DNA of 64,000 nt from Mytilus californianus (taxonomy: Eukaryota): assembly GCF_021869535.1 (NCBI RefSeq), contig NW_026262690.1:28520001-28584000 (forward strand). The letters run 5' to 3'. Below, one piece after another: positions 9,001 to 12,000 of this stretch. The position numbers are program-made. Within the stretch, counting starts at the first letter, position 1; each line of letters opens with the position of its first letter.

Positions 9001-12000
9001 GTCTACCTGGATTATTGACTTTGTGTATTTTAAATTTTAGAAATGTACCAGTTCATATTTCACATTACTATTTTTGTTAGAAGCATATCTATGCAGTCTC
9101 TGTTGTAAATACCTAACATTTTTGAAATTTTAGAATTATACAAGCGTTGTTCGGTTTTAATTGTATAAATTTAAAGATAGTTATAGTTTTAAATCAGAAT
9201 AGATTGAAATGATTCATTTTACATCATAGTCATACTGATGAAAGATATCTGTTATCCGAAATATTTATAGATAATTACATTTAATGTTTCCTTTTTTTAA
9301 TATTGGTGTTGTTTTGTACACTTTTAGACGTTTATATAGTATATTTATTGTGTACAGGTATCGCTACTCGTAACGATCCAGCGCCCTCGTAAGAAAGATT
9401 GTCGACTAATATCTAGACGTAATATATATATATATATAATGTAACTTTAACACCTTTGGGTTAATAAAATAGAAATGCCCCGGCTTTGATTTTTCAGGTT
9501 TTAGATATTTAAATGTGTCTTCATCAATATGACCCTGTTCACACATGATTTTAAAGTTAAACTTTGTGGTGACCTCTTGAATTGAGGGGTCGGGTCAGAG
9601 TCTAATTTCTTATAAAATCTCTCATCAGAAGGTTGACGTTCTGCCTCTTGAATGTAATCACCTTTGTCCATGACGACAACAACGCTGCCTTTATCTGCTA
9701 GATTTAGACACTCCAATTGTACGGAATACACCATATTTTGCAAGGTTAATTGCAAAACTACAAATGCTGTGTATCTTCTACAGTGTAAATGTGGTAAACA
9801 GTATGTTGGCGAGTCAGAACAGCCATTTCACAAACGCACGAACGGCCATCGTAGCGACTATGAATGCAAGCCAAACCTTCCTTTCAGTCGAATTCGAGAT
9901 CCCCTGGCCACACTAAGGCACATCTGAATCGTCTGACCATTACAATCATAGACCACAACACTGCTTGGGCTAGGGAGGATAGACTCTCTCGGGAAAGATT
10001 TTGGATAAGAAAATTAAAAACTTTGGCACCAAATGGGATCAATGAAAAGGTGTAGTTCTTATTCGCGAAGTGCTTTTTATTTTGGTTATATAACATATTA
10101 CTACGCAGTCTCTGTTGCTATTCTTTTACCTTTGTCAACTCTAAAATTCTAGAACTATACAAATTTAAATCGCAGGGTGCTATTCATTTGAGATGTATAA
10201 GTACGCAGCCACATTCAATTACTTAACCTTTGTCAAAATTATTTTTTTGTAATCATTATCAAACTGCTATTTATTTGGGATGTGTAAAAACGCATCGTCT
10301 GTTGTAATTACTTTACCGTCGTCAAATTTGAAATTTGAGTATTATACAAGCGCTGTTCGGTTTTAATTGTATAAATTTAAAGATTGTTATAGTTTTAAAT
10401 CAGAATAGATTGATATGATTCATTTTGCATGATTATCGTACTGATGAAGGATACCTGTTATCTGAAATATTTATAGATAATTACATTTAATGCTTCCTTT
10501 TTTTTTAATATTGGTGTTGTTTTGTACACTTTTTAGGCGTTTATATAGTATATTTATTGTGTACAGGTATCGCTACTCGTAACGATCCAGCGCCCTCGTA
10601 AGAAAGATTGTCGACTAATATCTAGACGTAATATATATATATATATAATGTAACTTTAACACCTTTGGGTTAATAAAATAGAAATGCCCCGGCTTTGATT
10701 TTTCAGGTTTTAGATATTTAAATGTGTCTTCATCAATATGACCCTGTTCACACATGATTTTAAAGTTAAACTTTGTGGTGACCTCTTGAATTGAGGGGTC
10801 GGGTCAGAGTCTAATTTCTTATAAAATCTCTCATCAGAAGGTTGACGTTCTGCCTCTTGAATGTAATCACCTTTGTCCATGACGACAACAACGCTGCCTT
10901 TATCTGCTAGATTTAGACACTCCAATTGTACGGAATACACCATATTTTGCAAGGTTAATTGCAAAACTACAAATGCTGTGTATCTTCTACAGTGTAAATG
11001 TGGTAAACAGTATGTTGGCGAGTCAGAACAGCCATTTCACAAACGCACGAACGGCCATCGTAGCGACTATGAATGCAAGCCAAACCTTCCTTTCAGTCGA
11101 ATTCGAGATCCCCTGGCCACACTAAGGCACATCTGAATCGTCTGACCATTACAATCATAGACCACAACACTGCTTGGGCTAGGGAGGATAGACTCTCTCG
11201 GGAAAGATTTTGGATAAGAAAATTAAAAACTTTGGCACCAAATGGGATCAATGAAAAGGTGTAGTTCTTATTCGCGAAGTGCTTTTTATTTTGGTTATAT
11301 AACATATTACTACGCAGTCTCTGTTGCTATTCTTTTACCTTTGTCAACTCTAAAATTCTAGAACTATACAAATTTAAATCGCAGGGTGCTATTCATTTGA
11401 GATGTATAAGTACGCAGCCACATTCAATTACTTAACCTTTGTCAAAATTATTTTTTTGTAATCATTATCAAACTGCTATTTATTTGGGATGTGTAAAAAC
11501 GCATCGTCTGTTGTAATTACTTTACCGTCGTCAAATTTGAAATTTGAGTATTATACAAGCGCTGTTCGGTTTTAATTGTATAAATTTAAAGATTGTTATA
11601 GTTTTAAATCAGAATAGATTGATATGATTCATTTTGCATGATTATCGTACTGATGAAGGATACCTGTTATCTGAAATATTTATAGATAATTACATTTAAT
11701 GCTTCCTTTTTTTTTAATATTGGTGTTGTTTTGTACACTTTTTAGGCGTTTATATATAAGTTTGAAAATTAGACCCAATTCGTTAGAATTAGATTTTTAT
11801 GCTGACAAACTTTTTGTCCCTCAACGGGAATTGCACTCACACCTTTGATACACTACAACACCAATCGCTTAGCCTCGTGTCCAGTGCTCTAGACCACTCG
11901 ACCACATCCGCTATATATATAAATATAACTTCAATAGTCATAGTGTTACCTTGTCCCGTAAGGCGAATCTAGAGATAGACATAAGACGTGTTTTAAGAGT

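What the first reader, a model, noticed from the sequence alone, without database searches (positions are those of the whole stretch)
9235..11755. Three sense hammerheads spaced about 1.2 kb apart: a retrozyme-like unit that could be cut out and circularised
Seen: a 1209-bp unit is tandemly duplicated almost exactly, and plus-strand hammerheads lie 1206 and 1209 nt apart. Each unit joins an antisense RT N-terminal fragment to a sense GIY-YIG fragment (junction near 9703) and encodes no intact protein. Established: non-autonomous retrozymes are tandem repeats released as monomers by hammerhead cleavage and copied by a partner RT. Inference: read-through transcription would free two about 1.2-kb monomers, and the tandem could itself be the footprint of reverse transcription around a circular RNA. 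It would be unusually large for a retrozyme and carries built-in antisense to RT mRNA, so it could also silence active Penelope copies.
Basis: partly seen in the sequence, partly recalled or inferred. Interest (0 to 1): 0.65.

Follow-up and report, generated by a model that had tools for sequence, protein, structure and literature searches.

The report
Duplicated dead Penelope fragment with hammerheads
This is a heap of broken Penelope-like retrotransposon pieces, probably in a mussel genome, in which one 1.2-kb scrap carrying the element's own weak hammerhead motif was recently copied once next to itself; it is ordinary transposon debris rather than a new kind of circular-RNA element.

Summary
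Three plus-strand hammerhead-like motifs start at 9235, 10441 and 11650, spaced 1206 and 1209 nt. 9322-10547 and 10531-11756 differ at 1 of 1226 positions. Each unit joins an antisense RT N-terminal piece (aa 317-399 of a 915-aa RT+GIY-YIG protein) to a sense endonuclease piece (aa 798-914) near 9700-9709. Both pieces are frameshifted.

The retrozyme reading is only partly supported. The motifs fit the minimal hammerheads published for Penelope-like element (PLE) terminal repeats. They share a fold with a diverged PLE copy at 6378 (7 of 14 pairs changed on both sides). No Rfam hammerhead model matches, the G10.1-C11.1 pair is absent, and the first copy folds unfavourably.

The locus is a zigzag of at least nine PLE fragments (4805-11756). 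The repeat is one homology-guided duplication between two older terminal copies that are 8.7% diverged. Its switch point (9323-9338) lies 55-70 nt 3' of the predicted cleavage site, which argues against a cut-and-ligated RNA circle from this locus as template. The monomer RNA is not unusually self-paired (z = -0.64). None of 65 database proteins spans the junction. The host genome could not be searched.

The parts
9089..9454 (+). x+a1: an older copy of the PLE 3'-terminal non-coding region (pseudo-LTR-like), head-to-head with the minus-strand RT copy M. It ends just after a (TA)n run at about 9420-9441.
   Evidence: 97.6% identical to the inverted copy 7007-6455. It differs from a2 at 18 positions in 9121-9328 and at 0 in 9329-9454.
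9222..9280 (+). Minimal hammerhead-like motif of a1. Core 9235-9261. Predicted cut after 9267 (alternative reading: after 9263). Helix II closes with an A.C mismatch.
   Evidence: Hammerhead fold +2.2 kcal/mol against an MFE of -6.6.
9455..9702 (-). RT N-terminal fragment N (aa 317-399 of P0003), frameshifted and truncated at both ends.
   Evidence: tblastn. Best relatives are Mytilus edulis proteins at 83-86% identity. No Pfam hit for the fragment itself.
9703..10055 (+). 5'-truncated GIY-YIG endonuclease fragment G (aa about 796-914). Frameshift near 9880, stop codon at 10053-10055.
   Evidence: BLASTP to the Pfam-positive GIY-YIG frame at 5763-6161 gives E 5e-12 and 1e-6.
10056..10326 (+). 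3' untranslated region d, with internal sub-repeats.
   Evidence: Family D3, copies at 10101 and 10288; sequence.
10327..10663 (+). Hybrid terminal copy: a2 lineage up to 10530, identical to a1 from 10538 on.
10428..10486 (+). Minimal hammerhead-like motif of a2, the best-formed copy. Core 10441-10467. Helix I 8 of 8 pairs with one bulge, helix II 5 pairs including G.U. Predicted cut after 10473 (alternative: 10469).
   Evidence: hammerhead fold -3.3 kcal/mol; MFE -8.3, sharing helix II and most of helix I.
9339..10547 (+). First copy of the 1209-nt duplicated block.
   Evidence: 1 mismatch in 1226 nt in register 1209, and that mismatch (9328) lies outside this block.
10548..11756 (+). Second copy of the block. 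It holds N (10664-10911, minus strand), G (10912-11264), d (11265-11535) and a3 (11536-11756), the last cut off at 11756.
11637..11695 (+). Minimal hammerhead-like motif of a3, identical to that of a2. Predicted cut after 11682.
7473..9088 (-). Context: PLE copy M (aa 392-859 of P0003), 5'-truncated and head-to-head with x+a1. It carries a 208-bp insertion bounded by inverted repeats at 8699-8906.
   Evidence: (I1).
6455..7468 (+). Context: inverted duplicate P of the a1-x-M(5') block. It comprises the antisense terminal copy 6455-6858, with a hammerhead-like motif on the minus strand at 6676-6650, and the RT piece aa 392-591 at 6868-7468.
4805..6455 (+). Context: diverged PLE copy F1 (aa about 456-915). 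It has its own minimal hammerhead-like motif at 6378-6404, 217 nt after its stop codon; predicted cut after 6406.

Best explanation
The region 4805-11756 is a nest of dead fragments of Penelope-like retrotransposons (PLEs) with a C-terminal GIY-YIG endonuclease, laid down in alternating orientation. This is the 'complex tandem/inverted' pattern published for this class.

The three motifs are the elements' own minimal type-I hammerheads. They sit in the 3'-terminal pseudo-LTR region, in sense orientation, 386 nt after the endonuclease stop.

The inferred ancestral locus was: terminal copy a1, then an inverted RT N-terminal scrap, then a 5'-truncated endonuclease with its 3' UTR, then a second, diverged terminal copy a2 cut off at the position now numbered 10547. 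A single, very recent, homology-guided DNA event between a1 and a2 then duplicated the 1209 bp between them. That event could be unequal exchange or template slippage.

Shown here: the fragments and their orientation, the near-identity of the two units, the two repeat lineages, the switch point, and the conserved hammerhead-like fold.

Inferred: the DNA-level mechanism and the absence of function. If the array is transcribed, the two good motifs (a2 and a3) might slowly release one 1209-nt RNA. I expect little or no processing and no mobility.
For: PLE identity:
- P0003 carries RVT_1 and GIY-YIG.
- tblastn maps nine fragments in alternating orientation.
- The best relatives are Mytilus edulis proteins.
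- Passages of Craig et al. 2021 describe partial tandems forming pseudo-LTRs, an adjacent inverted 5'-truncated copy, hammerheads in pseudo-LTRs, and PLEs as the most abundant transposons in Mytilus.

Motif:
- My relaxed descriptor finds 5 sites in the window. Simulated windows gave a mean of 0.055 sites, and 9 of 200 had any.
- All five have the unpaired nucleotide after A9 that Cervera and de la Pena 2014 report (parts 1-2 of the text).
- Against the diverged copy F1, 7 of 14 pairs change on both sides. 87% of cells are paired, against 27-49% with partners slid.

Duplication:
- 0 differences in 9329-10547 against 10538-11756.
- a1 and a2 differ at 18 of 208 positions to the left of that. My arithmetic: about 11 differences would be expected in the next 126 nt; 0 are seen.
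- The switch at 9323-9338 is in register between a1 and a2, and 55-70 nt 3' of the predicted cut.
- P differs from 9329-9454 at 4 of 126 positions, like the rest of a1 (4 of 208). That segment is therefore a1 lineage.
Against: - The exchange has to fall in the last 16 nt of a 218-nt homology, which is unusual for simple unequal crossing-over.
- The history that placed the RT N-terminal scrap (ending near aa 396-399) next to a1 is unresolved, given that copy M on the other side of a1 starts at aa 392.
- Near-perfect tandem units each carrying a ribozyme are also what an RNA-mediated more-than-unit copy would give.
- Absence of other copies rests only on one 64-kb window and on protein databases, where such short frames may never have been predicted.
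- The duplication may be an assembly error.
Confidence: 0.7

Rival explanations
1. RNA-mediated origin and mobility. The unit is a non-autonomous PLE derivative. Its transcript is cut by the hammerheads, circularised and copied for more than one turn by a PLE reverse transcriptase, which leaves the tandem.
For: There is one structured hammerhead-like motif per unit and the units are near-identical. Cervera and de la Pena 2014 proposed circular RNA templates to explain PLE head-to-tail tandems (discussion). Animal retrozymes are reported to derive from PLE terminal repeats.
Against: - The lineage switch in the middle repeat lies 55-70 nt 3' of the predicted cut site, with four a2 markers between them.
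- 9329-9454 is a1-like, hence local.
- The near-identical stretch is 2.01 units long (my arithmetic).
- The a1 hammerhead fold is unfavourable.
- No Rfam hammerhead match.
- Published minimal PLE hammerheads cleave poorly in vitro.
- The RNA is not self-paired (z = -0.64 with 20 shuffles).
- 0 of 65 protein hits span the junction.
Confidence: 0.1
2. Assembly artefact. The true locus has one unit (a1 ... a2), and the assembler mis-joined reads through the a1/a2 homology, creating a false exact duplication.
For: There are zero differences over 1219 nt and an in-register join inside a repeat. Craig et al. 2021 state that PLE tandem/inverted structures often cause assembly problems (passage).
Against: Nothing in the sequence itself argues against it. 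There are no N runs in the window. Read-level data are not available here.
Confidence: 0.12
3. Small-RNA source. The nest of oppositely oriented PLE pieces is kept as a piRNA or siRNA-generating locus that represses active PLEs. This is compatible with any of the origins above.
For: Both orientations of RT sequence occur on one strand. Arms of about 1 kb (6455-7468 against 9454-8269) are inverted at 87-98% identity.
Against: There are no expression data. Such nests arise by chance wherever PLEs are the most abundant transposon. There is no sign of selection: the pieces are frameshifted and decaying.
Confidence: 0.1

Closest known systems
Minimal hammerheads in the pseudo-LTRs of Penelope-like elements (Cervera and de la Pena 2014, PMC4209133; outline and parts 1-2 of 4 read)
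   Same: - Type-I layout.
- CUGAUGA and GAAA boxes.
- An unpaired nucleotide between A9 and helix II.
- Helix III absent or reduced to one pair.
- Location in the terminal repeat, in sense orientation.
- Copies on opposite strands a few hundred bases to a few kb apart.
- High variability of the motif: 8 of the 18 a1/a2 differences fall in its 59 nt.
   Different: - The conserved G10.1-C11.1 pair is replaced by G.U (a2, a3), A.C (a1, P) or U.C (F1).
- The four-base loop 3 (UAUU) is not palindromic.
- Helix II has 4-5 pairs here, against 6-8 in the published families.
Animal non-LTR retrozymes, including the 350-390-bp repeats of Mytilus galloprovincialis (Cervera and de la Pena 2020, PMC7229834, passages; Li et al. 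2026 preprint, abstract and section 14)
   Same: Head-to-tail repeats, one type-I hammerhead per unit, low GC, no working ORF, and descent from PLE terminal sequence.
   Different: - The unit is 1209 nt, not 170-400.
- It is made of recognisable coding debris in two orientations.
- Only two units plus a partial copy, at one known locus.
- The ribozyme is of the minimal kind, not the canonical one.
- The RNA is not highly self-paired.
Complex tandem/inverted PLE insertions (Craig et al. 2021, PMC8557442, passages)
   Same: 5'-truncated copies, direct terminal repeats flanking an internal part, an inverted 5'-truncated copy abutting head-to-head, a (TA)n run at a terminus, and a CxxC...CxxC linker before GIY-YIG in copy M (frame 7454-8020). 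The paper ascribes that linker to the Neptune and Nematis clades.
   Different: The internal part is not an ORF. It is an inverted 248-nt RT scrap fused to the last 118 codons. The clade was not tested by phylogeny.
Twin-priming inversions of LINE-1 (recalled, not looked up)
   Same: An inverted, more 5' segment joined head-to-head to a direct 3' segment of the same element type.
   Different: About 400 codons are missing between the two segments, and a different retrotransposon class is involved. This is only an analogy for how the N/G junction might have formed.

Membership tests
Hammerhead ribozyme as modelled in Rfam | Score at or above the gathering threshold of a hammerhead covariance model | tested here: not met
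   There were 0 matches at gathering over the whole window. No hammerhead family appeared among matches up to E = 10 in 8800-12300, 10415-10500 or 6355-6430.
PLE minimal hammerhead (Cervera and de la Pena 2014) | Catalytic boxes CUGANGA and GAAA, followed by U-H at the cleavage site | tested here: met
   Present in all five sites.
PLE minimal hammerhead (Cervera and de la Pena 2014) | [quoted passage not shown] | tested here: met
   An A in all five sites (alignment column 21). The descriptor solutions need bulge = 1.
PLE minimal hammerhead (Cervera and de la Pena 2014) | Conserved G10.1-C11.1 pair | tested here: not met
   For pair 22-36, 1 of 4 distinct rows is G.U and 3 of 4 are not a standard pair.
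PLE minimal hammerhead (Cervera and de la Pena 2014) | Helices I and II maintained by compensatory change | tested here: met
   7 of 14 pairs change on both sides. 87% of cells are paired against 27-49% when partners are slid, and 0 of 500 shuffles reach the observed score. Caveats: there are only 4 distinct rows from two families, and the structure was derived from these sequences.
PLE minimal hammerhead (Cervera and de la Pena 2014) | Helix III absent or 1-2 pairs, with palindromic 15.2-16.2 or loop 3, allowing dimers | tested here: inconclusive
   In F1, U16.1 directly follows A15.1. The a family has either that arrangement with a large internal loop in helix I, or one A-U pair closing a loop UAUU that is not palindromic. 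Cofolding two copies pairs a longer near-palindrome rather than a clean helix III.
PLE minimal hammerhead (Cervera and de la Pena 2014) | Self-cleavage | not testable with these tools
   Thermodynamics only: the hammerhead fold is -3.3 kcal/mol for a2 and +2.2 for a1.
Animal non-LTR retrozyme | Head-to-tail repeats with one type-I hammerhead per unit | tested here: met
   Spacing of 1206 and 1209 nt.
Animal non-LTR retrozyme | Monomer of about 170-400 nt | tested here: not met
   The unit is 1209 nt; the published range was read.
Animal non-LTR retrozyme | Many copies or families dispersed in the genome | tested here: inconclusive
   There is no further copy of the unit in the 64-kb window. 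Of the protein hits, 0 of 21, 0 of 42 and 0 of 2 span the junction. The host genome could not be searched.
Animal non-LTR retrozyme | Highly self-paired monomer RNA | tested here: not met
   MFE -266.4 kcal/mol against a mean of -261.3 (sd 8.1) for 20 dinucleotide-preserving shuffles, z = -0.64.
Animal non-LTR retrozyme | Expressed as linear and circular RNA | not testable with these tools
   No expression data are available.
Penelope-like element with C-terminal endonuclease | PLE-type RT followed by GIY-YIG | tested here: met
   The fragments map colinearly to P0003 (RVT_1 + GIY-YIG) at 41-85% identity. GIY-YIG scores above the Pfam cut-off in frame 5763-6161.
Penelope-like element with C-terminal endonuclease | Terminal direct repeats (pseudo-LTRs), an inverted 5'-truncated neighbour, and a hammerhead in the repeat | tested here: met
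   compared with the description.
Penelope-like element with C-terminal endonuclease | Intact ORF (an autonomous copy) | tested here: not met
   No frame longer than 188 aa in 5500-12500. All copies are truncated or frameshifted.

The most novel reading that the evidence does not exclude
The 1209-nt interval between the two well-formed motifs (10474-11682) is a transcribed, PLE-derived 'macro-retrozyme'. Its minimal hammerheads pair as a dimer across the repeat and free a unit-length RNA, which is ligated into a circle. That circle carries 248 nt antisense to the RT mRNA. It could act both as a template for PLE reverse transcriptase and as a source of antisense small RNA against active copies. 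It would be the first animal hammerhead circle larger than 1 kb and built from coding debris.
Probability: 0.05. Interest if true: 0.6.

Novelty: new member of a known kind. Interest (0 to 1): 0.22.

Why it matters
As it stands it matters little. It is a clear worked example of how PLE debris with minimal hammerheads can imitate a retrozyme, and of how two diverged terminal copies allow a test of whether a tandem arose through a ribozyme-cut circle. Here the switch point says it did not. The two PLE families in one window also give a small independent confirmation, through compensatory changes, that the minimal hammerhead fold is conserved in mussel PLEs even though Rfam models miss it. If the unit did prove to be mobile and circular, it would be an intermediate form between autonomous PLEs and the short animal retrozymes thought to descend from them.

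Tried and rejected
- Rfam at four settings found no hammerhead. The weak snoRNA, miRNA and SL1 matches there (E of 2 or more) are chance.
- TRF cannot see the array because its period limit is 500.
- Pfam on the N and G fragments alone gave nothing. They were identified through tblastn and BLASTP instead.
- Intron idea: the roughly 400 nt between N and M on the minus strand as a retained intron. I rejected this by reading the sequence: I saw no AG acceptor that restores the frame, and N and M overlap by about 8 codons.
- Target-site-duplication idea: a1 as an insertion into one minus-strand element, with the overlap as its duplication. I rejected this because, by my eye alignment, the two overlap copies are only about 64% alike, while the neighbouring repeats differ by 2-9%.
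- ARAGORN found no tRNA in 4000-14000, so my impression of a tRNA-like stretch right of the array is unconfirmed.
A lighter version gave the z-score.
- Searches for a second copy of the junction through junction-spanning frames on both strands found none.
- Not checked: any eukaryotic genome or read set.
- Supplementary figures of the 2014 and 2020 papers may show mussel PLE hammerhead families; they could not be seen.
- Complex prediction, structure prediction and the phage, plasmid and E. coli collections were not relevant and were not used.
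Full report
**What is there**

The window is AT-rich eukaryotic DNA (GC 0.28-0.37) with no N run.

- The pattern CTGATGA-N(6-30)-GAAA occurs seven times against 1.33 expected; 1 of 100 shuffles reached seven.
- Three plus-strand hits start at 9235, 10441 and 11650, spaced 1206 and 1209 nt. The repeat finder reports the same spacing (D1).
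- In register 1209, 9322-10547 and 10531-11756 differ at one position of 1226, namely 9328.
- TRF missed the array because its period limit is 500.

The left part of the first copy (9121-9328) differs from the second at 18 positions, whereas the second and third copies are identical over their shared 221 nt. The array stops abruptly at 11756.

**What the unit is made of**

The minus-strand frame 9501-9827 finds proteins of 190-2000 aa. The best are from Mytilus edulis, at 83-86% identity over the matching 39% of the query (21 hits among 129 candidates).

One hit, P0003 (915 aa), carries RVT_1 at 437-602 and GIY-YIG at 818-905. That is the architecture of a Penelope-like element (PLE) with a C-terminal endonuclease.

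tblastn of P0003 against the window gives:

| Fragment | Strand | Window coordinates | P0003 residues |
|---|---|---|---|
| N | minus | 9698-9445 | 317-399 |
| G | plus | 9712-10049 | 798-914 |

- Both fragments recur 1209 nt to the right, and each is split over two frames.
- BLASTP to P0064 extends the endonuclease homology to about 9709, so the junction lies at about 9700-9709.
- G ends at a stop codon at 10053-10055.
- Pfam sees neither fragment on its own. G matches the Pfam-positive GIY-YIG frame at 5763-6161 with E 5e-12 and 1e-6.
- The longest stop-to-stop frame touching the unit is 108 aa.

**Surroundings**

The same tblastn and a self-comparison show a chain of PLE pieces in alternating orientation:

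| Piece | Strand | Coordinates | Content |
|---|---|---|---|
| F1 | plus | 4805-6455 | Diverged copy, aa 456-915 plus 3' UTR |
| terminal copy | minus | 6858-6455 | Terminal non-coding copy |
| P | plus | 6868-7468 | RT aa 392-591 |
| M | minus | 9043-7473 | aa 392-859 |
| x+a1 | plus | 9089-9454 | Terminal copy |
| N | minus | 9698-9445 | aa 317-399 |
| G-d-a2 | plus | 9703-10663 | Endonuclease, 3' UTR, terminal copy |
| N, G-d-a3 | minus, plus | 10664-11756 | The duplicate |

- 6455-7007 is 97.6% identical to the reverse complement of 8905-9454, and 7007-7468 is 86.6% identical to that of 8269-8697. P together with its terminal copy is therefore an inverted duplicate of the a1-M block.
- Passages of Craig et al. 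2021 describe this class behaviour: 5' truncation, partial tandems forming pseudo-LTRs, an inverted 5'-truncated copy abutting the upstream repeat, hammerheads inside the pseudo-LTRs, microsatellite bias, frequent assembly trouble, and PLEs as the most abundant transposons in Mytilus.
- A (TA)n run sits at about 9420-9441, near the end of a1.
- Copy M has a CxxC-x4-CxxC linker before GIY-YIG (frame 7454-8020). That paper ascribes this linker to the Neptune and Nematis clades. I did not test the clade by phylogeny.

**Are the motifs hammerheads?**

By Rfam, no. There were no matches at gathering over the whole window. No hammerhead family appeared up to E = 10 in 3.5 kb, or in 86-nt and 76-nt searches centred on two motifs.

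By the relaxed 'minimal hammerhead' concept of Cervera and de la Pena 2014 (outline and parts 1-2 of 4 read), largely yes.

- My own descriptor asks for: a helix I with at least 5 of 6 pairs; CUGANGA; an optional bulge; a helix II of 4-8 pairs with at most one mismatch; GAAA; 0-6 loop bases; then U and a non-G.
- It finds five sites: 6378+, 6676-, 9235+, 10441+ and 11650+.
- Markov-simulated windows gave a mean of 0.055 sites, and 9 of 200 had any. Four of the five real sites are repeat copies, so there are two independent families.
- Both families place the motif in sense orientation after the endonuclease stop, at 386 nt in the unit and 217 nt in F1.
- All five sites have the unpaired nucleotide after A9 that the paper reports.
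- Counting pairs on the MAFFT alignment of the five sites shows 7 of 14 pairs changed on both sides. 87% of cells are paired, against 27-49% when partners are slid, and 0 of 500 shuffles reach the observed score. Caveat: there are only four distinct rows, and I derived the structure from these sequences.

Departures from the published features:
- The G10.1-C11.1 pair is G.U in a2/a3, A.C in a1/P and U.C in F1.
- Loop 3 (UAUU) is not palindromic.
- The cleavage site is ambiguous by 4 nt: after 9267/10473/11682, or after 9263/10469/11678.

Energetically the hammerhead fold is -3.3 kcal/mol for a2, whose MFE of -8.3 shares helix II and most of helix I. For a1 it is +2.2, against a -6.6 competitor that pairs the CUGAUGA box with upstream sequence. 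The paper reports low in vitro activity even for good minimal motifs.

**How the tandem arose**

The terminal repeat exists in two lineages.

- In 9121-9328, a1 differs from a2 at 18 of 208 positions but from P at only 4. In 9329-9454, a1 and the middle copy are identical (0 of 126), and P differs from them at 4 of 126.
- By my arithmetic, about 11 differences would be expected in those 126 nt if the middle copy's right part were a2 lineage.
- The middle copy is therefore a hybrid: a2 lineage up to 10530, a1 lineage from 10538 at the latest.
- The simplest ancestor is a1-N-G-d-a2 with a2 cut off at the present 10547/11756. One in-register exchange between a1 and a2 then duplicated 1209 bp.
- The near-identical stretch (9329-11756) is 2.01 units long.

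A circle made by cutting a transcript of the ancestral locus at the a1 and a2 hammerheads and ligating it would place the a2-to-a1 switch at the cleavage site (10473|10474). Four a2-specific markers (equivalents of 9287, 9292 twice, and 9322) lie 3' of that site, so the switch is 55-70 nt downstream. An imported cDNA of pure a2 lineage is also unlikely, because 9329-9454 is as close to P as the rest of a1.

Three things remain open:
- why the exchange sits in the last 16 nt of the homology;
- how N (ending near aa 396-399) came to lie next to a1, when M on the other side of a1 starts at aa 392;
- whether the duplication is an assembly error.

**Retrozyme criteria**

- Published animal retrozymes are 170-400 nt, highly self-paired, and present in many copies. 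The Mytilus galloprovincialis repeats are 350-390 bp, with about 5000 hammerheads (passages).
- A 2026 preprint derives them from PLE terminal repeats (abstract and section 14).
- The unit here is 1209 nt.
- Its MFE of -266.4 kcal/mol does not differ from 20 dinucleotide-preserving shuffles (mean -261.3, sd 8.1, z = -0.64).
- No second copy lies in the window.
- No database protein spans the junction. For the minus-strand frame, none of 21 longer and 42 similar-length hits covers more than 54% of the query. For the plus-strand frame, neither of the 2 hits covers more than 73%, and the one alignment I inspected (P0064) starts at query residue 18, downstream of the junction. This is weak evidence, because such short frames may never have been predicted in those sets.
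- No eukaryotic DNA collection was available, so the genome-wide test stays undone.

**Verdict**

The locus is best filed as a new instance of a known kind: dead PLE fragments in the class-typical tandem/inverted tangle, carrying the class-typical minimal hammerheads, with one recent local duplication. Interest is low.

The boldest reading still open is a transcribed, circularising 1.2-kb PLE-derived unit carrying antisense RT sequence. I put it at about 5%.

Noticed in passing
window 1-4296 and 63292-64000: The same 45-bp satellite lies at both ends of the window: 68 + 24 copies at the left and about 15 at the right, 85-89% matches. The window is therefore bracketed by one satellite family.
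   Followed up: partly
window 8699-8906: Copy M carries a 208-bp insertion bounded by 24-nt inverted repeats that are 96% complementary. The corresponding site in the inverted duplicate P (around 7007) is empty. This looks like a small MITE-like element that arrived after the P/M duplication. I saw no clear target-site duplication.
   Followed up: partly
window 6455-7468 versus 9454-8269: An inverted repeat with arms of about 1 kb made of PLE RT and terminal sequence. The outer 553 bp are 97.6% identical and the inner 462 bp are 86.6% identical, separated by about 800 bp. If transcribed it would form a long hairpin. The jump in identity along the arms is unexplained.
   Followed up: no
window 6365-6419: A second, diverged PLE family (F1, about 50% amino-acid identity to P0003) has its own minimal hammerhead-like motif without any loop 3. 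Rfam misses it as well.
   Followed up: yes
window 9222-9280 versus 10428-10486: 8 of the 18 differences between a1 and a2 fall inside the 59-nt hammerhead segment: five in the 5' strand of helix I and three in helix II. This fits the published remark that these motifs vary unusually fast, but the numbers are too small for a test.
   Followed up: no
window 26993-27884, 39740-40160, 47390-48351, 58776-59823: Further tandem arrays with periods of 161, 40/120 and 166/333 bp, and a repeat at about 431-bp spacing. Nothing links them to the finding.
   Followed up: no
window 19947-20641, 30929-31177, 33302-33448, 35438-35633, 45340-46151, 53247-53676, 62609-63018: A dispersed short repeat family of 100-400 bp at 68-91% identity, in both orientations. 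It is probably a SINE- or MITE-like element.
   Followed up: no
window about 11800-11915, minus strand: Directly right of the array the sequence looked tRNA-derived to my eye. ARAGORN and Rfam at gathering call nothing there, so this is unconfirmed.
   Followed up: partly
window 7606-7664: A 12-nt tandem (4.5 copies) lies inside the endonuclease region of copy M. It interrupts homology to the G fragment between 7623 and 7656.
   Followed up: no
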